22,312 bases of DNA, from assembly GCA_963664395.2 (NCBI GenBank), contig CAXXIS010000006.1, positions 1 through 22,312 on the forward strand, read 5' to 3'. Each line of letters opens with the position of its first letter. Within the stretch, counting starts at the first letter, position 1. This document shows positions 1-18,291 of the stretch, piece after piece. The notes under the pieces were generated by a model, which saw only the letters and a list, made by a program, of their open reading frames with translations, was not told the origin of the DNA and made no database searches. This DNA comes from Candidatus Binatia bacterium (GTDB lineage Bacteria > Desulfobacterota > Binatia > Bin18). A program made the translations under genes and the position numbers.

Positions 1-1
1 G

Positions 2-730
2 AACATTATGATGTGAGTTGATCCAGACGAAAGTGAAGGTCCCTTTTGGTCTTACATTGCGAGCAGCCTTAAGAATTGAGTCTCGATCCGAGTTCGCCAG
101 TTTGGCAGAGTAATGAAATATAATCTGAGGAGTAGGCGAGAGCTGGTTTTGAATTTTTGTCAGCGTTTCTTCAGCTAGCCGAGCAAGGTGGAGAGTGCGC
201 TCCTCGAAGTTGAAATATGATGTGTTACCGGAGTAGAACTCCCACTTGCCATAGCTATTGAAAACATTTGCGAATCCCATAATTCGCTGACCACCCCTCG
301 ATTGTGTATGCGAAAGCCCAATGAAGAAGTCGGCGTCTGGAATCGCGTCGGGCAGAACCCAGGGCCTAACTCCACATTTGGCGGTGATATTCAATGCCAA
401 GTTCAAATCTTTCCAGTCAGCATTTTGTAACGTTGGTGTATCGACCATTTGGCATGGTACGCCCTTTTCCAGAAGCGATCTCTTGATGACGTAGTAGGGT
501 GAGTTGTGATCGTCCTTCAAGTAGCCCTGCTCCGGCGTGTGAACGAGGAAGATTCGTTTCAGGCTGCTGTCACCTCGCCAATCCGAGTGCTCCACCAATA
601 ACCGTTCAACCTCGTTTCGAGTATTTTCGATGCGCTCCACGGTCACAACCGTTGAGTATGAGAATTTTGTAGCAAATGTCCGCTCGGCGCCGCGGTATTT
701 ATATTTTCCGACTTTTAGACGATTGATTAG
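2..730 (-). CDS. Segment 3 of the fusion: Argonaute MID and N-terminal part of an inactivated PIWI domain (truncated by the window edge)
   Basis: Manually translated, 243 codons with no stop: LINRLKVGKYKYRGAERTF...SPYYVIKRSLLEKGVPCQMVDTPTLQNADWKDLNLALNITAKCGVRPWVLPDAIPDADFFIGLSHT...RIMGFANVFNSYGKWEFY...IIFHYSAKLANSDRDSILKA...TFVWINSHHNV. It is absent from the ORF track because its stop lies outside the window. Confidence 0.9.
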
Positions 731-1260
731 TTTCCTCCATTTTGTGACGCATAGGATTGAGACAGACGGGAATAATCTCGATATTATGCGAATCGGTGTC
801 GTAGGTCCCGTACTGCGTAATGCCGTCCCGAACATCCGGCAAAGTATGATGCTCCCGGAATTCTACAGTTGGCTCCGCCAGTCGGCGGACAGGAAAACTT
901 TTTTCAGTAGGTTTTGCTTGCTCAACGAGTTGCAGCGGCCCTGTAATGACTCTGACCTCCAAATCACCGAGCTGAATCGGAAACACGTTATCAGCGACAT
1001 ACTGAACCATCCTTGCGATCTTATCAGTTCTCTCTCTGGCCGCACCCGACTTTGACGCTAAACTGTGTTTCTTGATGGCAGCAGAGAGATCGAATGCTAC
1101 GCCGGCGTGTTGAAGCGACTTTTCAATCACAGCTACTGAGCAACTGGGTATGACCGCATCTACTGGGACCGGCTCTTCTGCCTCAGTGTCAAAAAAATGG
1201 ACTCTGGCAAATTCCGTATCGAATTCTACAATTCGTCCTTCGCGCCATTGTCCCTTTTTT
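731..1260 (-). CDS. Segment 2 of the fusion: compact PAZ-position beta domain and L2 linker of Argonaute
   Basis: This is the protein-like part of ORF 699..1400 (KGQWREGRIVEF...LAEPTVEFREH...GITQYGTY). EPxxxF followed by G..YG resembles the pAgo L2 region, and the segment lies between segments 1 and 3. Confidence 0.7.
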
Positions 1261-2997
1261 TGCAACACAGCGACGATTGATAAACTCTTCTTTCGGAACT
1301 TGCTGGCCAATGGCAGCAAGTTTCTGCACGTTGAGAACTTCGCACTTGTAGTCGAGACAGAGGTAGAAGCTCTCAAAATACTGTCGAATCTGAAACTCAT
1401 AGGCCGGGTAGAAACGCAATATGGACTTCACATTCGCAGGGACGGCGAGTTCGACACCCCGTCTATGCGCTACTATTCGGCTGAATCTAAATCGGTCGAT
1501 AAACCAGCCTTTTCCAGCCAACACGTCGCGGAGTGTTTTTACGAACTCTCCATAACGGACGTTGAACGTATTACAACTAACCGGTTTATCTCCTTGTCTG
1601 ATCCTCAAAAGAAAGAGATTGCCAAATTCCGTGGACTTAACTTGGCTTGCGGCGAGCATTGCGGCTTCACGTTTTTCGGCGTTATTTTCGAGCTTAATCA
1701 GTGTTTCGTTTTCTGCTAGCCGATACCGTGGCGCGGGTAGACCGAGATTCCTCATCTCGTTCAACATCTGTTTTGTGCCCTCGCTAATGGCTTGGACATA
1801 AGCAACGCCGTCAGGGTCTTTCATCAGCTTGAGCCATTCGATCAATTTTGCGTTTCTAGGCATCGAGTTCAGTACCGTATCGGAGAGTGAAAACTCGTTT
1901 GGCAGATCGTTGTTTCGTTGCAGCATCCGACCGGGGTTCTTCACAAGGAAGGCATCGGAGTACGACTCACATTCAATCGGGATACCAGTTCGGTAATCAC
2001 GGTGAGTGACCGCATTGACGATAGCCTCATCAATCACTGTTGGTGGAAACTCCTGTTCCTCCACAAAGCCCCCTCCGGACTTTCGCTTCTGGTATCGTTT
2101 GAAGAACGCCGATTCCCGGAAGAAGGACCGAGCTTCGCGAATCTGCTTCGTCAATGGGCCTGTGAACGCCTTATCAAGAGTCGGTAAATCCCGTATTTGG
2201 AATTGGTCGGAAGAAACTGCGAAGCGAAGTAGGCGAATATGGGATTGAGGAAGGACGCGTTGTGGATTTGATGCAAAGAACAACAGGCCAGCGTGTGTAA
2301 ACCCATACTCTCCATTGCGTTGAACGATAGCTCCCGCTTCATAAAGCACACGCTCGTCCGTGAACTCGTTAGTGGAATCAGGATGGAACACTTTCCGAAA
2401 TTCCACCAGAACATCTTTAGCAACATCACCAGCCTCGAACGGGCAACAGAAATCATTCTCAAAATTTAATAGACTTTTATCGTTCCTGATTCGATCACGT
2501 ACTTCCTGCGTCATTGGGACATTTTGGGGACCATTTCGGGTCCAGGCTTTAGGCATCCGTTCTGGCGTTTCGCAGATGCCTTTATCTGCGTGAGGAACGA
2601 ATATTAGACAGATAGTCTTAGAGTTGTCCTGAGTATCCACACATTCATATAGTTTGGGTTCCGCTGCCTGATGATGAAGGAGTGTCGCAAAATCTGTCAG
2701 GCTGTTCCTTTGCTGTTCTGATAGGTGGTCAATGCCGTTCACGGTTCCATTGGAGGCGATCCCGAGAACGAGCAGCCCGCCCTTGCGGTTTGTGTTGGCA
2801 AATGCAGAAATCGTCTCTTTGATCTGACCCCGTATGCCTCCTAGTTGCTTCTCCAGCCTTTTTGCGTCAACGCCCGCCCGGCCAGCCTCTTTACGGTCGA
2901 AATACTGACCCTCGAAATCGTCATCAGAGCTTTGGGTGAGAAAGGCCCAATGCTCTGTCGGGTCGTCAAAGACTTGTTTCGGCGATGGTATTGTCAT
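1189..2997 (-). CDS. Segment 1 of the fusion: Schlafen/AlbA_2 domain, HATPase_c_4 (RecG C-terminal-like) domain and Argonaute N/L1 region; the true frame leaves at ~1260
   Basis: ORF track 602 aa. EGQYFDRK at 2913-2890, SAFAN at 2808-2794, EAIVNAVTHRDY at 2028-1993. Ago-like TEFGNLFLLRI starts at ~1632, followed by L1-like YPAYEFQIRQYFESFYLCLDY. The start overlaps the mod stop (ATGA, 2994-2997). Confidence 0.85.
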   Translation of the reverse strand: MTIPSPKQVFDDPTEHWAFLTQSSDDDFEGQYFDRKEAGRAGVDAKRLEKQLGGIRGQIKETISAFANTNRKGGLLVLGIASNGTVNGIDHLSEQQRNSLTDFATLLHHQAAEPKLYECVDTQDNSKTICLIFVPHADKGICETPERMPKAWTRNGPQNVPMTQEVRDRIRNDKSLLNFENDFCCPFEAGDVAKDVLVEFRKVFHPDSTNEFTDERVLYEAGAIVQRNGEYGFTHAGLLFFASNPQRVLPQSHIRLLRFAVSSDQFQIRDLPTLDKAFTGPLTKQIREARSFFRESAFFKRYQKRKSGGGFVEEQEFPPTVIDEAIVNAVTHRDYRTGIPIECESYSDAFLVKNPGRMLQRNNDLPNEFSLSDTVLNSMPRNAKLIEWLKLMKDPDGVAYVQAISEGTKQMLNEMRNLGLPAPRYRLAENETLIKLENNAEKREAAMLAASQVKSTEFGNLFLLRIRQGDKPVSCNTFNVRYGEFVKTLRDVLAGKGWFIDRFRFSRIVAHRRGVELAVPANVKSILRFYPAYEFQIRQYFESFYLCLDYKCEVLNVQKLAAIGQQVPKEEFINRRCVAKKGTMARRTNCRIRYGICQSPFF

Positions 2998-5767
2998 ACC
3001 CGAAACACCTTCATTACCTCGTCGCCCAGATGATTGATGACCTTGACGGCGATCCGCCCGGACGTGGGTTTGTCGAACGGGCGGGAGGTGTCGTTGTTGA
3101 GGGTCGCCCAGGCGTCTGCGTTGATTTCGGCTTTGAGGGTGGTCTTGAGAGCTTTATAGGGGTCGTTGGCTCCGAGGAAATAGGCGTGGCGAACGAAGAA
3201 GCTCTCTTCGTTGTAGTCGGTGTCGATAAACCAGCAGGCGATGCCGTCGGCGTTGTCGCTACGGATTTCACCGGTGTTCGGATGGAATACGTCCACGCCG
3301 TTGATCTTGACCCGGACCTGTCCGTTCTCAGCGTCCAGGATGTCGATGTCCGGCTCGCCGAAGATGACGAACAAATTGCCCTGGCCGGTGTTCTTCAGAT
3401 CGTCGGCCATGTGCAGGTCGGCGTTCATGCGGGCCTTGAGCACGGGAATGCGGCCGAGCTTGTCAAACTCGGATGAGCGCGCGTCGTAGTTGAAGGCGCA
3501 GGTAATCAGCGCGTCGAAATCCGCGTCACCCGCCTCACGGGCCGCTTGGACCAAGTCCGGACGAGAGACCGTACCAAACTCCGGGCCGATAAAAATTGCC
3601 GCGCGCTTTTCCGTGCCGGCTTCCTGGTCGCCTTCGAGGTAGCGGCCTTCGGCGCAGATCAAATCGCCCGGCCAAGGGGTGATTGCGGTGAAGCTGATTT
3701 TGTCTTCCTTATGCGCCTGCTGCACACCGGCGGTCTTGAGGTTTTCCAGAATCATCCGGGCGAAGTCATGCTCTTCGCCGTACCCGGCTTCCGGCTCGGC
3801 AACGCCGTCGATCAGTTCGTCGTCTTCGTCCACGCTCAACACCCGGTGCGGAGACAGACTTTCGACCGTAAACGGCCCGGCAACCCGGACCTTTTTCTTA
3901 TCCTCATAGGGTTTGTCGTACAGGTATTCGTAGTCGGCTTTGGCTGCGATAGACGCATCAATTTCTTTTTGCCGTGCAATCCGCTGCTCCCACCACTCGG
4001 CATGGAGCCTCTTCGCCTCCTCCGACCAGCCAGCGTCAGCCTCACGAGGAATTTCCCACTCCTCCCACGGCGTGCTTCTCTTGTCTCTAACGTACAATTC
4101 AGTTGCTCGCGCAGCGGTTCCAGCGTTTCCTGAAACTTCTCCCAGATCACGTCGATCTCGGCATTATTGGCGATGGATTTGAGCGTAATATGCGGGACAC
4201 GCTCGTAGACGAAACCCTGACGGATATTCCCATGCACGGTCGTTTCGGAAGGAGCAGTCCGAGTGACTTCAGCTTCTTTACGTTGCCCCTCACGGCTGTC
4301 GGCCAGCAGATGATACGGATAGCGCGCACCCATAATGCGGGCACGAGCCAGCGCCAGAGCAACGCGAGATGTGTCGATGGTGATCCAGCGGCGGCCCCAT
4401 TGTTCGGCGGCGTACGTGGTGGTGCCGGAGCCGCAGGTCGGGTCGAGGACGAGGTCGCCGGGGTCGGTGGCCATGAGGATGCAACGTTGAGTAACTTTTA
4501 GTGATGTCTGGACAACGTAGATTTTTGGATCTGTATATCCAGACACAATCGTGTCATCCCAGCTATTGCTGAACGTCGTGACAGAGAAATCGTCGGCATA
4601 CCGCTTGTACCGGATGCGCCTACCCACCCCTATTAGCCGGCCAGCGAGTTTCAGGCGTGGCATCCCTTCTCGCGAAGTCTTCCAATGTGTATTTGGCGGT
4701 AATTCAAAAATCTTACCTTCAAGTTCTATCGGGTAAGTCCCTGACTCGCTGGCTCCCTGTGAGCTAATAGTGTCCGGCATATATCGATGATCGCCAAGGA
4801 CGTACGCTTTCCGAATGGAGTCCTGTTCAGTGTATTGCGTGTCTAACAACTGAGCCGCCTTCGGCAAGAATGCCCTACGATACTTCATAAGTGGGCGCTT
4901 CTTGGCATACCAAAGAAGCATGTCATAGATATTCTCCAAGTACGCTGCGCCTGAGCCAGAAGTCTTCTTAAATGAGATGCAGGAGACAAAGTTGTCCTCT
5001 CCAAACACCTCATCCATCAGCGCCCGAACCCGATGCACATTCTCATCCCCAATCTGAACAAACACAGAACCGCTCTCCGTCAACAAATCCCGCGCAACGG
5101 TCAGCCGGTCCCGCAAATACGTCAGATACGAATGAATCCCATCCCGCCACGTATCCCGAAACGCCTTGACCTGTTCGGGCTCGCGGGTGATGTGACCGGT
5201 GTTGCCGTCCTTGACATCGCGGCTGGTCGTGGACCACTGAAAATTGGAGTTGAACTTGATGCCGTAGGGCGGGTCAATGTAAATGCACTGCACCTTGCCG
5301 CGCAGCCCCTCCCGCTCCGCCAGCGACGCCATCACTTGGAGTGAGTCACCCAGAATCATGCGGTTGGTCCAGTTGGCGTCGTGCTGGTAGAAGTCGGTGG
5401 CGCGGGCCTCGTCGGGCAGACCGTTGAAGTCGGCGAACAGGTCAAACTGGGCTTCGGTGGCTTTGTCGTCGGTCTTGGTCTGACGGAGCAGGTCGTCGAT
5501 GAGGACCTTGGGATGGACTTTCTCCTGGATGTAGAGCGGTGGTGCCTGGACGACCAAGTCCGACCAGTCCTGTTCGTCCTTCCCCCGCCACACCAACTGC
5601 GGGTCCAAATCGCGGTTGCGCCGCTCATAGGCAACCTGAATCGGACTTTGTTCGTCCTTACGCATCACCGACTGAAACTCAGCCGTAGGGATGTTCTTGC
5701 GCGATGCGGCGGGGTGCGTGAGTGTTGCGACGGTCTTGGCCGTCTTCTTGCCACGGGATTGAGCCAT
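2994..5767 (-). pseudogene. Type III-like adenine DNA methyltransferase (Mod, beta class, long C-terminal extension), split by one frameshift at ~4075-4090
   Basis: The upstream frame (start MAQSRG at 5767) has motif IV CIYIDPPYG and motif I VLDPTCGSGTT. After LEPLREQLN the family-like sequence continues in the -1 frame (WEEWEIPRE...VAGPFTVESLSP...IAVKVINHLGDEVMKVFRV, ORF 2994..4097). Confidence 0.85.
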
Positions 5768-5772
5768 TGAAT

Positions 5773-5955
5773 TTAACCTTTGTCCGACGCGGGAATCTCC
5801 TGGACATCCACGGACAGACACCCTTCAACCGCTTCGTAGAGATTGCTCAGCAGTGCTTCAAAAGATTCTCCCTGAGTCGTGCAGCCGGGGATAGCGGGCA
5901 CCTCTGCCCAATAACCACCTTCCTCCGCTTCATGGACGACTACCTCCAATTTCAT
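5773..5955 (-). CDS. HicB-family antitoxin (short, N-terminal domain only), with no adjacent hicA
   Basis: MKLEVVVHEAEEGGYWAEVPAIPGCTTQGESFEALLSNLYEAVEGCL is the typical HicB-like signature, preceded by an AGAGGAG RBS. Confidence 0.85.
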   Translation of the reverse strand: MKLEVVVHEAEEGGYWAEVPAIPGCTTQGESFEALLSNLYEAVEGCLSVDVQEIPASDKG

Positions 5956-8900
5956 GATCTTCTCCTCTGTTCAGTGGGGAGTGGCTAGGGGGTCGATTGA
6001 TAAGCCTGTCGAAGCTCGCTTCGAGCGTGGCCTGAAAGTCGGCCTCGATCTGATACACCTCCGTGAACTCGGCGAAGGCCCAGCGGCCATACTGCCCATG
6101 ATAGTTCACTCCGGGAATCCAATAGGTCTCCATGGTAGACTTCTTTTCCTTGGCGTCTTCACCCCGATAGCCTTTGATCTCAACGATCAGGTGCAACGGA
6201 TCGTCGTGACTGTCATTCAGCAGAACAATGAAGTCAGGAATATAGGTACGCATGGTCGAGCCGTACCGGTAAGGCACCTCCAGTCCGAGGTTGTGGTTTT
6301 TCACGTATGCCTGCACGGCAGGATGTGACTCGGCTATACGGCAGAACTCGGCCTCCCAGTCGCTGTCGAGAATAGCCCAGTTGATATGACATCGCCGTGC
6401 ATCCGTCTCCCAGCGGTGCGCTTTTGAGGTATTGAAGTTGACGTGCATGGTCGAGCCGGTGGGGTTGTAGGGGTCCAATACCGCCTTCACGGGCCGGTTG
6501 CCGATGAAGGAGCGAGTGATACCGGCAGTAATGCGCTCGCAGGCCATATCGGCCAGTTCTTGGTACATGAGCTGGGCAGGATAGGTGCTGCCTTTGCAGA
6601 TCAAGCAGGTATCGAGCCATTGTTTGGTGATGTGTTTCAACTGGCCGAATAGGTGGAGCTTCGGATCTTCGCCAGGGTCGCGCCATTTGGTGTAGAGCAA
6701 ACGCTTGGCAACGTGGAACAACACGGTGGAGCGCCGTAGGTCGCCGGTGTGAACGAGGTTGAGGTCAACATCTTCTCCAATAATTCCCGCGTTCCGTGTG
6801 ATCGAGGGGCCAACGAGGTCCGGCGTCAACTCCAGAATAGAATCGTCGTTGAACTCGGCGCTGAGTCGCTCCTCCGGCAGTTCGACGCGATAGCCTTCGA
6901 CACGTGGAAACTGAATGGCAAGATGATCGCGGTCAGGACGCACCGCTCGGACCTGAACAGTCTCGCGGGGCGGCTGGGGTGGAGCGACGACCGGCTTGGC
7001 GGTGAAGTCGAACGGAATCCCCAGGACATCGGCGTATTCCACATTGAACAGCTCGTCTTCATTCAAAGCGTAGGATTGCCGACGCAAGGCGCGCCCAATG
7101 ACTTGCTCGCACAGCAGTTGAGTGCCAAAGGCGCGCACGCCCAGGACATGCGTGACCGTGTTGGCGTCCCAGCCTTCGGTTAGCATGGATACCGAGACAA
7201 CGCAGCGAATCGACCCGCCCAACCGACCTAGTTTACCGACCGTATTCATCACTTCCCGAAGCAAGTCTTGGTCGGAAAGATTCTCGGCCTGACCGCGGTC
7301 GCCGGTGCGTTCGATAATCTCCCGCCGGAAGCGGTCAATCTCGCCCGCGGCCATAGCCCGAAAATTGGCGTCCAGGGCATCACCGGATTCGAGCTGTTGG
7401 CTGTCGATGAGTAAAGTACGCGGACGCGCCAGTTGAGTCCCGTCCGCATTATAGTTCCGGAACAGCGGCAAGCGGCCATTCTCAAACGCCGTCGAATCGT
7501 TCCCATTGTCCCGCCGAAAGCCCGAGATGTAGTCGTAGACCAGCTTGGATGTAGAGGTGTTGTTGCACACCACGATAAAACAGGGTGGAACCTGAATGCC
7601 TTCCTGCTGCCATAGCTTGAAGGTCTTCTCGTAATGACCATACAGGGCTTCCAGGGCGGTCTGGAGTTCAACTGGCAGGCTGAGCGGGTCGAGGGTCTTG
7701 GCCTTGCCTCGGCCCTTTTTCGGCATCCGGGACCGAATATGTTCCCACAGGTTGCGGAATTTGGGCATCTCGCCGCCAGGGATATTGTCGGCCACAGGCA
7801 CGCGGGGCAGTTTGACGATGCCGCATTCGATGGCGTCCATGAGTGAAAAGTCGCTCATCGTCCAGGGGAAGAGTGTCCCCTCGGCATAGCCCGACCCGCG
7901 TAGAAAGAACGGGGTGGCCGATAAATCCATGATCCGTGCAACACCCAACTTGCGGTTTATGGCTTCCAGGCCGGAAATCCAGAGCCGCGCAGCCTCGTTG
8001 TTCTTCTCGGCTTCTTTTCGCTCGTCGCCTTTAAGAGTTCCTTCGTCGTCTTTTTCCGGTTTCTCACGGTAGCAGTGGTGGGCCTCGTCGTTCATCACCA
8101 CGATATTTTTCATGCCCATGAGGTCGGGCATGGCGCGCTGGATCATCTGTCCTTCAGTCTCCAAGGTGTCCAACTCCGCGCCTCGGCCTTGAAGCAGCGA
8201 GCGGCCACCCTTTGAAAGCGCCATACGTTCACGCAGCTTAAAGGCGTGGTAGTTGGTAATGACGATCTTGGCCCGGTCGAGGTCGCCGAGCATGTCATTC
8301 GGCACCAGCTCTCGGCTTTCGTAGTAGCTGTCCGGGTCGTTCGGTTGCAGGACGCGCAGCCGGTCGCGGATCGTCAAGCCAGGCGTGACGATCAGAAAGC
8401 CTCGGGTAAATCTTCTGCTCGTTGGGCGGCGGACTGCGTTGATGGTCTGCCAGGCAATCAGCATGGCCATAACCGTAGTCTTACCCGCGCCAGTAGCGAG
8501 TTTGAGGGCCAGGCGCAGCAAGCCTGGATTGGCGTCGTTATTGGCATTCGTGAGATGGTCCAGAAAGTCTTTGCCGGTCTTGCCCGCGCTCGGGGCGACC
8601 TCGGTCAGCCAGATAGCGGTTTCAACTGCCTCCACCTGACAGAAGAAGGGCCGGATAGTGTTGAACGTATGCTGTCGCCAGTGTTGAAGCAGACGAGCGG
8701 TTTCGGGCGTCACCTGCCAGTCGGCTCGATTTGGTCGGCTGCGCCACTGGTCCACCTGACGGCGCAGCGCGGTTATAATTGATGTGGAGTCGTACTGCTG
8801 CTCAGCGGTTGAGAGTCCTTTGCCCTCATCCAAGATGAGTTGCTGCTGGTGCGATGAGCCTTTCCGTTTTCTCGGCTTTGGAATGGGAGTAATAAACTCA

Positions 8901-9022
8901 GCCCGACGGCGGCTTTCGATGATCTGCTGTGTTGGCTGTCCCTGGTCATCAAGCTCCCAGTGTTGCGTGGGATCCTCGTAGGGCGAGTTCAAGATCGGCT
9001 GCTCGAAGAATCGGTTGTCCAT
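5930..9022 (-). CDS. Type III-like restriction endonuclease subunit (Res; SF2 helicase/ATPase with C-terminal PD-(D/E)xK nuclease)
   Basis: Walker A LATGAGKT, NDEAHH, LSATP, MLTEGWDA and EQVIGRALRR; C-terminal YIPDF...IVEIKG; 1030 aa; upstream of a Mod gene. Confidence 0.92.
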   Translation of the reverse strand: MDNRFFEQPILNSPYEDPTQHWELDDQGQPTQQIIESRRRAEFITPIPKPRKRKGSSHQQQLILDEGKGLSTAEQQYDSTSIITALRRQVDQWRSRPNRADWQVTPETARLLQHWRQHTFNTIRPFFCQVEAVETAIWLTEVAPSAGKTGKDFLDHLTNANNDANPGLLRLALKLATGAGKTTVMAMLIAWQTINAVRRPTSRRFTRGFLIVTPGLTIRDRLRVLQPNDPDSYYESRELVPNDMLGDLDRAKIVITNYHAFKLRERMALSKGGRSLLQGRGAELDTLETEGQMIQRAMPDLMGMKNIVVMNDEAHHCYREKPEKDDEGTLKGDERKEAEKNNEAARLWISGLEAINRKLGVARIMDLSATPFFLRGSGYAEGTLFPWTMSDFSLMDAIECGIVKLPRVPVADNIPGGEMPKFRNLWEHIRSRMPKKGRGKAKTLDPLSLPVELQTALEALYGHYEKTFKLWQQEGIQVPPCFIVVCNNTSTSKLVYDYISGFRRDNGNDSTAFENGRLPLFRNYNADGTQLARPRTLLIDSQQLESGDALDANFRAMAAGEIDRFRREIIERTGDRGQAENLSDQDLLREVMNTVGKLGRLGGSIRCVVSVSMLTEGWDANTVTHVLGVRAFGTQLLCEQVIGRALRRQSYALNEDELFNVEYADVLGIPFDFTAKPVVAPPQPPRETVQVRAVRPDRDHLAIQFPRVEGYRVELPEERLSAEFNDDSILELTPDLVGPSITRNAGIIGEDVDLNLVHTGDLRRSTVLFHVAKRLLYTKWRDPGEDPKLHLFGQLKHITKQWLDTCLICKGSTYPAQLMYQELADMACERITAGITRSFIGNRPVKAVLDPYNPTGSTMHVNFNTSKAHRWETDARRCHINWAILDSDWEAEFCRIAESHPAVQAYVKNHNLGLEVPYRYGSTMRTYIPDFIVLLNDSHDDPLHLIVEIKGYRGEDAKEKKSTMETYWIPGVNYHGQYGRWAFAEFTEVYQIEADFQATLEASFDRLINRPPSHSPLNRGEDHEIGGSRP

Positions 9023-16915: not shown

Positions 16916-17140
16916 ATGATGTCGGAACAGAACCGTCCAGTCTTTCAATCGGTTGAGGCCGTCCAGGCACAATTTGCCCAGTGGAATTATATCGCCGACC
17001 GGGCGCTCGCCCTGGAGATTGACGAACTCCGGGCGGAAACTCTGGAGGACACTGCCGGTGTGATTCTGAAATACCATGACGATATTGAGCGCTTACACAC
17101 CATTGGGGCGGAGACCATCCTGAAGGGTGGCACGGAGTGA
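16916..17140 (+). pseudogene. CoxD/MoxR-family AAA ATPase remnant: N- and C-termini fused in frame, ATPase core missing
   Basis: SVEAVQAQFAQWNYIADRALA resembles the CoxD N-terminus and LEIDELRAETLEDTAGVILKYHDDIERL resembles its C-terminus. There are no Walker motifs in the 74 aa. It overlaps a CoxE-like gene by 4 bp. Confidence 0.75.
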
Positions 17141-18291
17141 GTGGGGATACGCCTCCAGCGGAACCCCCCAAAGAAGCCCCCTCCGCTCTGAGTCAGCTAC
17201 CCGAGACGCTGCTCACACGCACGCTTGAGCTGTGTCGATTGGCCAAGGCGGCGCAACTCGGTGTGGCCCCAGGCCGCGTCATTGATGTCGCCCGCTCCCT
17301 GCGCAGTATTCAGTTTGTCAATGAGGACGACTTCCGCCTCGCCCTGCGGACGAATCTGGCCAGCAGTCAAGCGGAAGAACAACGATTTGACCGGCTGTTC
17401 AAGGCCTACTGGTACGGGGAAGCGGAGAACGCAGGCTACCGCACAGGCGTGCAGACCGAGTTGCTTCGAGGCGACTTCGACCAGGGCTTGCAGGAGGCCC
17501 ACCAGGACATTATTGGCCAGCTTGAAGATACCAGTGCACAGGAGACCCAGCGCGACCTGAACCTGACGGCACGCTGGGATGAGGCAGCGCTCCCCATCGA
17601 ACACATCGTCCGTGCCCTGGCCAGGCGTCTCGCCACGCGCCCCAGCCGGCGTCTCAAACCGTCCCCACGCGGCCGGCGGATAGACCTGCGACGCTTACTC
17701 CGGCGTAATATGCGGCACGGCATGGATATGGTTGAACTCGCCCGGGTCCAGCGCCGCGTGCGCAAGACTCGCCTCGTCCTGTTGTGCGATGTGAGTGGCT
17801 CCATGGATGCGTTTAATCCGTTTCTTTTGCAGCTCATGCTGGGGATTCAGAAAGAACTCAAGAATGCGCGCACGGTGGTTTTCAGCACGGCCGTCACTGA
17901 GATCACGTCCGTGCTGCGCCGCCGCTCCGTGCAACACACCTTGCAGCAGGTCGGCGAGACGGTCCGCCACTGGTCCGGCGGTACGGATATCGGCGGAGCA
18001 CTCACCAAGTTGAACCGGAGTGTTCTGCGTGAAGGCTCGGCCCGCTCAACGGTCGCCATCATTATCAGTGACGGCTATGACAGCGGCCGCACCGAAATCA
18101 TTGAACGCGAAATGCGCGCCCTGCGCCGCCGCGTGCGCAGCGTGGTCTGGATCAATCCCATGTACTGTGCCGCCAGCTTTGAACCGCGCGCTCAGGGCAT
18201 GAAGGCCGCCCTGCCCTATATCGACCATTTTTTGCCGGCGTATAATGCCCAATCTTTGCAGGTCTTGGTGCGCGAGCTGGCACGGGTCTGA
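17137..18291 (+). CDS. CoxE-like VWA-domain protein
   Basis: MIDAS DVSGSM, WSGGTDIG, IIISDGYD, VVWINP and GMKAALPYIDHF; N-terminal RFDRLFKAYW. Confidence 0.9.
   Translation: MSGDTPPAEPPKEAPSALSQLPETLLTRTLELCRLAKAAQLGVAPGRVIDVARSLRSIQFVNEDDFRLALRTNLASSQAEEQRFDRLFKAYWYGEAENAGYRTGVQTELLRGDFDQGLQEAHQDIIGQLEDTSAQETQRDLNLTARWDEAALPIEHIVRALARRLATRPSRRLKPSPRGRRIDLRRLLRRNMRHGMDMVELARVQRRVRKTRLVLLCDVSGSMDAFNPFLLQLMLGIQKELKNARTVVFSTAVTEITSVLRRRSVQHTLQQVGETVRHWSGGTDIGGALTKLNRSVLREGSARSTVAIIISDGYDSGRTEIIEREMRALRRRVRSVVWINPMYCAASFEPRAQGMKAALPYIDHFLPAYNAQSLQVLVRELARV

What the first reader, a model, noticed from the sequence alone, without database searches (positions are those of the whole stretch)
1..2997. 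Hidden Schlafen/AlbA-GHKL ATPase-Argonaute fusion: candidate guide-programmed abortive-infection effector
Seen: three consecutive minus-strand frames join into one protein of more than 1000 aa after removing two single bases. The last frame is not in the ORF track and carries Argonaute MID motifs (YYVIK 496-482, CQM 454-446, NITAKCG..PW ~391-355) and PIWI strands. The N-terminus has the AlbA/Schlafen ExxxxDxK and SAFAN motifs followed by an HATPase_c_4 domain. Known: Schlafen-type AlbA domains can be tRNA/rRNA endonucleases, and non-slicing pAgos activate partner effectors (SIR2, TIR, nucleases) when guide and target pair. Inference: this is a single-chain system in which Ago senses invader nucleic acid and, through the ATPase module, switches on an RNase. 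I recall AlbA-fused pAgos from genomic surveys but cannot say whether this exact architecture has been characterised.
Basis: partly seen in the sequence, partly recalled or inferred. Interest (0 to 1): 0.93.

Follow-up and report, generated by a model that had tools for sequence, protein, structure and literature searches.

The report
Broken-looking Schlafen-Argonaute defence gene
The stretch encodes a member of an already described family of bacterial anti-phage proteins that fuse a Schlafen RNase, an ATPase and an Argonaute sensor; it looks split into three pieces most likely because of two single-base assembly errors, so the find is real but not new.

Summary
On the minus strand of 2-2997, three overlapping frames read in series as one protein.

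It is a SLFN-pAgo: Schlafen/AlbA_2 nuclease, GHKL ATPase and a catalytically dead long-B Argonaute core.
- One 1121-position PADLOC pAgo model covers all three frames.
- One search found 445 long relatives, the 120 listed being 1066-1161 aa. The best is 96% identical, and 61 of 80 genomic loci are single open frames.
- That relative aligns end to end, at 39% identity, with Runella zeae RzAgo.

Both frameshifts are +1 insertions in homopolymers. An otherwise identical public contig lacks both, as do three related alleles. They are probably assembly errors.

The window is a minor-strain contig that ends inside the gene. The last 126 codons lie on the main contig, which carries a 2.6 kb out-of-frame deletion allele.

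Same-genus genomes hold only differently deleted remnants of this orthologue.

Verdict: a new member of a known kind. Interest is low.

The parts
2..2997 (-). SLFN-pAgo coding region, codons 1-998 of about 1124. It reads in three frames as deposited and is cut by the contig end.
1252..2997 (-). Frame 1: residues 1-582. Holds the Schlafen domain, the GHKL ATPase and the start of the Ago core.
   Evidence: 559/582 identical to P0001
732..1259 (-). Frame 2: residues 580-755. Ago N/linker/PAZ-like region with no Pfam hit.
   Evidence: 157/176 identical to P0001; PADLOC PDLC02394 positions 560-753
2..742 (-). Frame 3: residues 752-998. MID domain and most of PIWI.
   Evidence: 238/247 identical to P0001
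2509..2913 (-). Schlafen AlbA_2 domain (Pfam PF04326, residues 29-163). Includes E29-x4-D34-x-K36 (2890-2913) and SAFAN (2794-2808).
   Evidence: D34 aligns with the RzAgo nuclease residue D32 (paper section read).
1699..1983 (-). GHKL ATPase core (Pfam HATPase_c_4, residues 339-433). The Mg/ATP motif DEAIVNA with E324 and N328 lies just upstream, at 2011-2031.
   Evidence: E324/N328 align with RzAgo E314/N318 (paper section read).
1255..1261 (.). Frameshift 1: one extra base at a T7 run of the + strand (A7 in gene sense, followed by GGG).
   Evidence: Left out at 1255 or 1251 in contigs of all 4 runs laid.
731..733 (.). Frameshift 2: one extra base in TTT (+ strand; GAAAC in gene sense).
   Evidence: Left out in contigs of all 4 runs laid; in X5 it accounts for 14.3 of 28.9 depth.
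371..496 (-). MID 5'-end pocket residues: Y..K in YYVIK (482-496), Q in CQM (446-454), K in NITAKCG (371-391).
   Evidence: Y834, K838, Q849 and K873 are invariant in 18 homologues.
101..319 (-). PIWI strands carrying S in place of the first two catalytic Asp: GLSHTQ (302-319) and FHYSAK (101-118).
   Evidence: AaAgo D502 and D571 align with S895 and S963 of P0001. Coordinates.
2598..2605 (-). Upstream copy (AATATTCG) of the imperfect 8-base repeat at which the main contig C1 carries its deletion. The downstream copy (AATGTTC+G) is at 7-1 and runs off the contig.
   Evidence: The junction appears as a loose end at 2598 in runs X4 and X5.
2994..5821 (-). Type III-like DNA methyltransferase (mod, N6_N4_Mtase). 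Its stop overlaps the pAgo ATG. It is split in this contig by single extra bases at 4074 and 4086, but is one 942-codon frame on C1.
5930..9022 (-). Restriction subunit (ResIII helicase plus RE_endonuc domain), upstream in the same orientation.

Best explanation
Window 2-2997 (minus strand) is the first 998 codons of a SLFN-pAgo gene. This is a single-chain anti-phage protein with three modules: an N-terminal Schlafen/AlbA_2 RNase, a GHKL (Bergerat-fold) ATPase, and a complete but catalytically dead long-B-type Argonaute core.

By homology with Runella zeae RzAgo, the likely mechanism is as follows. The Ago core loads small RNA guides and recognises complementary invader DNA. Guide-loaded protein is held inactive. 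Target binding together with ATP-driven tetramerisation through the GHKL domain assembles the Schlafen domains into an active tRNase. Translation then shuts down in the infected cell (abortive infection). This mechanism is shown only for RzAgo and is inferred here.

The two frame breaks are most likely single-base consensus errors in a low-coverage strain-variant contig. The underlying allele would then be intact.

The contig stops at the point where the dominant strain (contig C1) carries a 2.6 kb out-of-frame internal deletion of the same gene. The last 126 codons are found only on C1.

The gene sits directly after a type III-like res-mod pair, in a low-GC defence islet.
For: Family identity:
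- One PADLOC pAgo model of 1121 positions covers the three frames consecutively.
- One search found 445 proteins of 1055-3010 aa at E<=0.001. The 120 listed are 1066-1161 aa, and the best (P0001) is 96% identical.
- 61 of 80 genomic loci are single open frames of 3.2-3.6 kb.
- P0001 aligns end to end with RzAgo: 452/1146 identical, residues 1-1124 against 1-1113.
- P0001 and RzAgo give the same Pfam picture.

Functional residues retained in the window's frames:
- D34 = RzAgo D32
- K36 and SAFAN
- E324/N328 = RzAgo E314/N318
- the Y-K-Q-K MID pocket
(paper sections read)

Dead PIWI: AaAgo D502/D571/D683 align with S895/S963/G1095.

Long-B-like core: Foldseek's best hit is RsAgo 5awh_A, E 2.9e-22, 807 columns.

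Frameshifts as errors:
- The run X4 contig (2593 nt) equals window 1-2568, with 0 other letters and exactly the two extra bases left out.
- Contigs of X5, X6 and X1 (90-99% alleles) also lack them.
- Both are +1 insertions in homopolymers.
- Two more frame-breaking +1 insertions sit in the neighbouring mod gene, within 4.1 kb of the contig end. C1 has that gene intact.
- Substitutions between C7 and C1 look like real strain divergence: 210 synonymous against 56 non-synonymous codon differences.

Deletion allele:
- C1 joins residues 1-133 to residues 997-1124, out of frame.
- Its junction is seen in X4 (depth 8.3, against 2.2 for the full-length piece) and in X5.
Against: - The deposited assembly does carry the two extra bases.
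- The X4 contig has a depth of only 2.2. I cannot tell whether X4 is the sample the assembly came from or an independent one. All runs laid were contigs, not raw reads.
- Within the same genus, this orthologue is found only as remnants in three other genomes and on C1. Genuine decay in this lineage is therefore plausible.
- HATPase_c_4 (25.7 bits against a cut-off of 26) and Piwi (26.9 against 28.9) fall just under Pfam's cut-offs.
- The AF2 model used for Foldseek is mediocre: mean pLDDT 63, pTM 0.49.
- Function is inferred from a homologue at 39% identity. Nothing was tested on this protein.
- RzAgo has H where this clade has the invariant E29.
- The equivalent of RzAgo D72 is ambiguous in the alignment, falling at N83 or at a gap.
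Confidence: 0.8

Rival explanations
1. True pseudogene. The strain behind contig C7 really carries both +1 insertions, plus the two in mod, so this copy is dead like the other copies in the genus.
For: - The bases are in the deposited sequence.
- The same orthologue is decayed on C1, G001, G021 and G006, each in a different way.
- 10 of 80 loci elsewhere look disrupted in their assemblies, one by an IS110 insertion.
- Homopolymers are also natural slippage hotspots.
Against: - A public contig identical at every other one of about 2566 positions lacks both insertions.
- Two indels and no substitution would be an unusual mutation spectrum.
- All four frame-breaking differences near this contig end are +1 insertions.
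- The contig is a low-depth variant of the main assembly.
Confidence: 0.17
2. Programmed recoding. Transcriptional slippage on the A7 run, or ribosomal +1 frameshifting, restores the frame and throttles expression of a toxic effector.
For: The first break is at an A7 run in the mRNA sense.
Against: - The second break (GAAAC) is not a slippery site.
- All 120 listed homologues are single proteins of 1066-1161 aa, and 61 of 80 loci are uninterrupted.
- The nearest alleles in four runs lack the extra bases, so the feature is not conserved.
Confidence: 0.02
3. Three separate functional genes: a stand-alone Schlafen-ATPase ('Schlatpase') plus two Ago fragments that act in trans.
For: Stand-alone Schlafen-GHKL proteins are common in prokaryotes, according to the preprint (section read).
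Against: - The breaks fall inside the Ago core, not at the domain boundary, which is near residue 442 in RzAgo (section read). The breaks are at about residues 582 and 755.
- The frames overlap without start-codon logic.
- No relative shows this split.
Confidence: 0.01

Closest known systems
SLFN-pAgo, model RzAgo of Runella zeae (bioRxiv 10.64898/2026.05.29.728809; read: abstract, Introduction, five Results sections, Discussion)
   Same: Same domain order and length (1124 against about 1111 aa). End-to-end alignment at 39% identity. Shared nuclease Asp (D34 = D32), SAFAN box, GHKL E/N pair and MID Y-K pocket. Dead PIWI. Location beside restriction-modification genes in a defence islet.
   Different: Only 39% identical, and from a different host lineage; a same-genus genome matches a record titled Candidatus Binatia. 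This clade has E at the first motif position, where RzAgo has H. Here the gene is deposited with two frame breaks and is cut by a contig end. No experiment exists for this member.
Long-B pAgos such as RsAgo of Rhodobacter sphaeroides (PDB 5awh, 6d8a)
   Same: Best structural match for the C-terminal ~700 residues. Catalytically inactive PIWI. RsAgo's PDB entries hold guide RNA with target DNA (titles), the same guide/target pair as reported for RzAgo.
   Different: RsAgo has no Schlafen or GHKL module. Sequence similarity is weak: phmmer E about 3e-6 over the MID-PIWI part only.
Short pAgo systems with APAZ effectors (SPARTA, SPARSA, SPARDA; PDB 8fex and others)
   Same: An inactive Ago acts as sensor and switches on a toxic effector, giving abortive infection. 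The PIWI region matches at E about 5e-8.
   Different: Those systems are MID-PIWI only and have a separate or fused APAZ partner. Here a full long-type core is present and the effector is fused at the N terminus. The PADLOC short-pAgo models score far lower than PDLC02394.
Mammalian Schlafens (e.g. human SLFN11)
   Same: Same AlbA_2-type nuclease lobe with an acidic motif and SAFAN box. tRNA cleavage serves as the antiviral output (preprint sections read).
   Different: The mammalian proteins have an extra N-lobe and an unrelated SF1 helicase/ATPase. They have no Argonaute module (section read).

Membership tests
SLFN-pAgo (Kuzmenko et al. 2026 preprint) | N-terminal Schlafen AlbA_2 domain (PF04326) with the E(x)4(D/E)xK motif and SAFAN box | tested here: met
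   Pfam 2.2e-11, 44.7 bits against a cut-off of 25.3, residues 29-163. E29-GQYF-D34-R-K36 and SAFAN 64-68. E29, K36 and S64/A65/F66/N68 are invariant in 18 homologues.
SLFN-pAgo (Kuzmenko et al. 2026 preprint) | GHKL ATPase domain (PF13749) with the catalytic Glu and Mg-binding Asn (RzAgo E314, N318) | tested here: met
   HATPase_c_4 scores 25.7 bits, marginally under the cut-off of 26. RzAgo itself scores only 28.3. E324/N328 align with RzAgo E314/N318 and are invariant.
SLFN-pAgo (Kuzmenko et al. 2026 preprint) | Complete long-B-type Ago core (N, PAZ, MID, PIWI) lacking the PIWI catalytic tetrad | tested here: met
   Tested on the 96%-identical intact relative P0001. Foldseek's best hit is RsAgo over 807 columns (the model is of moderate quality). 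AaAgo D502/D571/D683 align with S/S/G (the AaAgo residue numbers are recalled and agree with the printed alignment). The first two positions lie in the window. The third is beyond the contig end.
SLFN-pAgo (Kuzmenko et al. 2026 preprint) | One polypeptide of about 1,071-1,187 residues | tested here: inconclusive
   As deposited, the gene reads in three frames and is truncated at codon 998. An otherwise identical public contig lacks both extra bases. The missing 126 codons are on C1. That would give 1124 codons, but raw reads were not available.
SLFN-pAgo (Kuzmenko et al. 2026 preprint) | Full-length homology to RzAgo, i.e. membership of the monophyletic clade | tested here: met
   End-to-end BLASTP, 39% identity, E 0.0. 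No phylogeny was built here.
SLFN-pAgo (Kuzmenko et al. 2026 preprint) | RNA-guided DNA sensing, ATP-driven tetramerisation, tRNA cleavage, phage protection | not testable with these tools
   Biochemistry and phage assays are needed. These activities are known only for RzAgo (sections read).
Short pAgo / APAZ systems (SPARTA, SPARSA, SPARDA) | Ago reduced to MID-PIWI, with an APAZ-effector partner | tested here: not met
   About 300 residues of confidently modelled N/PAZ-like core precede MID. The match spans the whole of RsAgo. The upstream neighbour is a methyltransferase, with no Pfam family beyond N6_N4_Mtase.

The most novel reading that the evidence does not exclude
The res-mod-SLFN-pAgo islet may be a co-transferred defence cassette whose Argonaute-Schlafen gene is kept as a polymorphism. 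Full-length alleles would persist at low frequency, while independent internal deletions repeatedly remove the gene.

Four different deletion end-points are seen in one genus, two of them at the same chromosomal site as C1:
- C1: residue 133 joined to 997
- G001: 51 joined to 689
- G021: 400 joined to 1024
- G006: lost after residue 28

This would point to a recurrent fitness cost (self-targeting by a tRNase) balanced against phage pressure. It might also point to functional coupling with the adjacent type III restriction-modification system. A methyltransferase lies directly upstream in 5 of 80 loci, from three differently named lineages.
Probability: 0.2. Interest if true: 0.5.

Novelty: new member of a known kind. 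Interest (0 to 1): 0.22.

Why it matters
For the scan, this is a calibration case. A tool-free reader correctly rebuilt a three-frame gene and guessed a mechanism that had just been shown experimentally. However, the architecture is already in the literature (noted in 2018, characterised in 2026) and in PADLOC.

In practical terms, it flags that the small contigs of this assembly are strain variants with probable indel errors. Split genes on them should therefore not be read as pseudogenes or recoding without read support.

Biologically, the modest added value is the picture of one defence islet caught in several states of loss: within one population (a full-length allele at about one fifth of the depth, against a deletion allele) and across a genus. 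That could be used to study the cost and turnover of abortive-infection genes.

Tried and rejected
- PDB sequence search found no SLFN-pAgo entry, so RzAgo coordinates could not be compared. I took RzAgo's sequence from the Runella zeae locus L079 instead.
- The AF2 model of P0001, built from an 18-sequence alignment, was only moderate: pLDDT 63, pTM 0.49, with the Schlafen and GHKL parts mostly below 70. I used it only for the Ago-core match. I make no claim about the N-terminal folds from it.
- I considered programmed frameshifting and a genuine three-gene split, and rejected both (see rivals).
- I looked for a conserved ATGA stop/start overlap between mod and pAgo in the five loci that share mod. 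It is not conserved.
- The res gene is found upstream in only 2 of those 5 loci within the flanks held. The 'cassette' is therefore firm only for mod plus pAgo.
- I did not determine the host taxonomy directly. The only hint is that same-genus genome G001 matches the place of locus L073, whose title reads Candidatus Binatia.
No habitat is claimed from them.
- The mod gene's two extra bases could not be checked against public contigs, because the single read-laying run covered 1-3000 only.
- Supplementary files of the preprint were not opened. Its Extended Data (gene neighbourhoods, list of the 78 proteins) might show whether this Binatia lineage or the mod linkage is already covered.
- 'SLFN-pAgo' occurs in one paper of the library.
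Full report
**What is in the sequence**

On the minus strand of window 1-2997 there are three overlapping open frames: 1189-2997 (602 aa), 699-1400 (233 aa) and 2-835 (278 aa, open at the end).

Pfam results:
- The first frame holds SLFN_AlbA_2 (2.2e-11, residues 29-163) and HATPase_c_4 (1.1e-5, 25.7 bits against a cut-off of 26).
- The second frame has no hit.
- The third frame holds Piwi (3.6e-6, 26.9 bits against 28.9).

PADLOC is far clearer. A single 1121-position model, PDLC02394 'pAgo', matches the three frames one after the other. It covers positions 2-582 (2.7e-239), 560-753 (4.6e-53) and 750-996 (1.6e-128).

tblastn of the best intact relative, P0001 (1124 aa), reproduces the same series at 96%, 89% and 96% identity. 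It places the breaks at an A7 run (T7 at 1255-1261 on the + strand) and at GAAAC (TTT 731-733). Each break is one extra base.

**What kind of contig this is**

The window is the whole of contig C7 of an assembly made of one 4.8 Mb contig (C1) and 13 contigs of 10-26 kb.
- All 13 small contigs are variant copies (84-99.6% identity) of regions of C1.
- C7 2595-22310 equals C1 2137877-2118151 at 98.06%, with 360 mismatches and 8 indels.
- In nine coding stretches the codon differences are 210 synonymous to 56 non-synonymous. The substitutions therefore reflect a real second strain.

C1 lacks window 1-2597. There, codons 1-133 are joined out of frame to codons 997-1124 at an imperfect 8-base repeat (AATATTCG / AATGTTCG). 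C7 stops exactly at that junction. The last 126 codons of the gene therefore exist only on C1 (2137866-2138249, 127/128 identical to P0001).

**Are the frameshifts real?**

Public-run contigs were laid on 1-3000.
- Run X4 holds a 2593-nt contig. It equals window 1-2568 with no other difference, but with exactly the two extra bases left out (at 731 and 1255).
- Contigs of X5, X6 and X1, which carry alleles 90-99% alike, also lack them. One of these is a 3601-nt contig at depth 32 that spans the whole stretch and runs on into the expected C-terminal codons.
- The C1-type deletion junction appears as a loose end at 2598 in X4 (depth 8.3, against 2.2 for the full-length piece) and in X5. Both alleles therefore coexist.

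Two further single-base insertions, at 4074 and 4086, split the neighbouring methyltransferase on C7. C1 has it as one 942-codon frame.

There are four frame-breaking +1 insertions within 4.1 kb of the end of a low-depth variant contig. In the pAgo stretch, they come with no accompanying substitution relative to X4. This looks like consensus error rather than decay.

I put about 0.8 on error. Four caveats apply:
- The X4 contig is shallow.
- All runs were contigs, not raw reads.
- I cannot tell whether X4 is independent of the assembly.
- The gene is decaying elsewhere in the genus (see below).

**What the gene is**

One search found 445 proteins of 1055-3010 aa at E<=0.001. The 120 listed are 1066-1161 aa.

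In one genome per species, 129 stretches encode a relative, and the best 80 were kept. Of these 80:
- 61 are single open frames of 3.2-3.6 kb;
- 9 are cut by contig ends or matched only in part;
- 10 look disrupted in their assemblies. One of these is interrupted by an IS110 transposase.

One locus is Runella zeae DSM 19591. Its product (P0121) aligns end to end with P0001 at 39% identity.

A bioRxiv preprint of 30 May 2026 (10.64898/2026.05.29.728809) names this family SLFN-pAgo. I read its abstract, Introduction, five Results sections and Discussion. It describes:
- a monophyletic group within long-B pAgos;
- 78 proteins of 1,071-1,187 aa in 16 bacterial phyla;
- an AlbA_2 Schlafen domain, a PF13749 GHKL ATPase and a PAZ-MID-PIWI core without the catalytic tetrad.

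For RzAgo it reports:
- RNA guides with 5'-A and DNA targets;
- guide-induced inactive filaments;
- ATP-driven tetramers that pair Schlafen domains into a SLFN11-like cleft;
- target-licensed tRNA cleavage, abolished by D32A;
- phage protection lost in the D32A and E314A mutants.

An earlier survey had already noted AlbA_2 fused to several long-B pAgos (PMC6299218, passages seen).

**Residue-level check**

The window's product keeps the following:
- E29-x4-D34-x-K36, with D34 aligned to RzAgo D32;
- the SAFAN box at 64-68;
- E324 and N328, aligned to RzAgo E314 and N318;
- the Y-K-Q-K MID pocket.

All of these are invariant in 18 homologues, except D34, which alternates with E.

Aquifex Ago D502/D571/D683 align with S895/S963/G1095, so PIWI is inactive.

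An AF2 model of P0001 is moderate overall (pLDDT 63) but confident over residues ~455-760. Foldseek's best matches are RsAgo chains (E 2.9e-22, 807 columns, TM 0.55 on the target). This is a complete long-type core, not a short pAgo.

Two small differences from RzAgo:
- RzAgo has H where this clade has E29.
- The counterpart of RzAgo D72, whose mutation is hyperactivating, is ambiguous in the alignment (N83 or a gap).

**Surroundings**

Upstream, in the same orientation, lie a restriction subunit (5930-9022; ResIII plus RE_endonuc) and the methyltransferase (5821-2994; N6_N4_Mtase). The methyltransferase stop overlaps the pAgo ATG.

On C1, a HicB-like antitoxin gene follows the remnant. The rest of the window is housekeeping.

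GC is 0.48-0.50 over the gene, against about 0.57 for the genome. The gene is lower in GC than its flanks in 57 of 61 intact loci.

A homologous methyltransferase lies directly upstream in 5 of 80 loci. Their titles are Arenicellales, Candidatus Binatia, Phycisphaeraceae, Phycisphaerales and Planctomycetota. The res gene is found in 2 of those within the flanks held. The preprint reports frequent RM neighbours but no conserved partner. This linkage is therefore confined to a subclade.

**Within the genus**

P0001 was searched against G000 and 40 relatives, 24 of them in the same genus. The close orthologue appears only as remnants:
- G001: residues 1-51 joined in frame to 689-1124. This is the same place as locus L073, titled Candidatus Binatia.
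- G021: residues 2-400 with a TAG, plus 1024-1124.
- G006: residues 1-28.
- G000-C1: residues 1-134 plus 996-1124.

G008 has an intact copy, but it is only 44% identical.

G021 and G006 are syntenic with C1 around the islet. The RM genes are deleted in G021, and mod is decayed in G006. The islet is thus being lost repeatedly, by different deletions. The C7/X4 allele is the only full-length close copy seen among the same-genus genomes searched.

**Verdict**

However, the architecture and mechanism are already published, and the family is already in a defence-annotation database.

This is a new member of a known kind. It was most likely made to look 'hidden' by assembly errors on a strain-variant contig. 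The only mildly new angle is the allele polymorphism and the recurrent deletion of the islet.

Noticed in passing
window 2994-5821 (breaks at 4074 and 4086): The type III-like methyltransferase next to the pAgo is split on this contig by two single extra bases 12 nt apart. The main contig C1 has it as one 942-codon frame. This may be the same kind of consensus error.
   Followed up: partly
G000 C1 2137474-2138249 (locus L002): The dominant strain carries a 2.6 kb out-of-frame internal deletion of the SLFN-pAgo gene at an imperfect 8-base repeat. The junction is also seen in contigs of two public runs, at about four times the depth of the full-length piece in X4.
   Followed up: yes
L073 6001-7464 (= G001 C1 685280-686740); L089 (G021); L091 (G006): Three same-genus genomes hold differently deleted remnants of the same orthologue. 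One is a 487-aa in-frame product that keeps the first 51 residues and all of MID-PIWI. G021 and G006 are at the syntenic site.
   Followed up: partly
L068 7553-9174; also L035, L061, L077: Four SLFN-pAgo loci are about 1.6 kb longer than normal. In L068 the insert encodes an IS110-family transposase. The other three were not examined.
   Followed up: partly
L046, L047, L049 (cyanobacterial loci): The matches start at about residue 161-164 with no stops inside. These copies may lack the Schlafen domain or carry a divergent one.
   Followed up: no
window 17790 and 18233 (VWA CoxE-like gene 17137-18291): C1 differs from C7 by a 10-base tandem duplication and a 4-base deletion inside this gene. 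C7's frame is intact, with a full Pfam match. C1's frame between the two sites was not checked.
   Followed up: no
G000 C1 2138536-2138982 (L002 2566-3012): A HicB-like antitoxin gene with an HTH lies just downstream of the pAgo remnant, extending the defence islet. No HicA partner was looked for.
   Followed up: no
G000 contigs C2-C14: All 13 small contigs of the assembly are strain-variant copies of C1 regions, at 84-99.6% identity. This explains the 5.4% 'contamination' figure. Genes on them are duplicates, not paralogues.
   Followed up: yes
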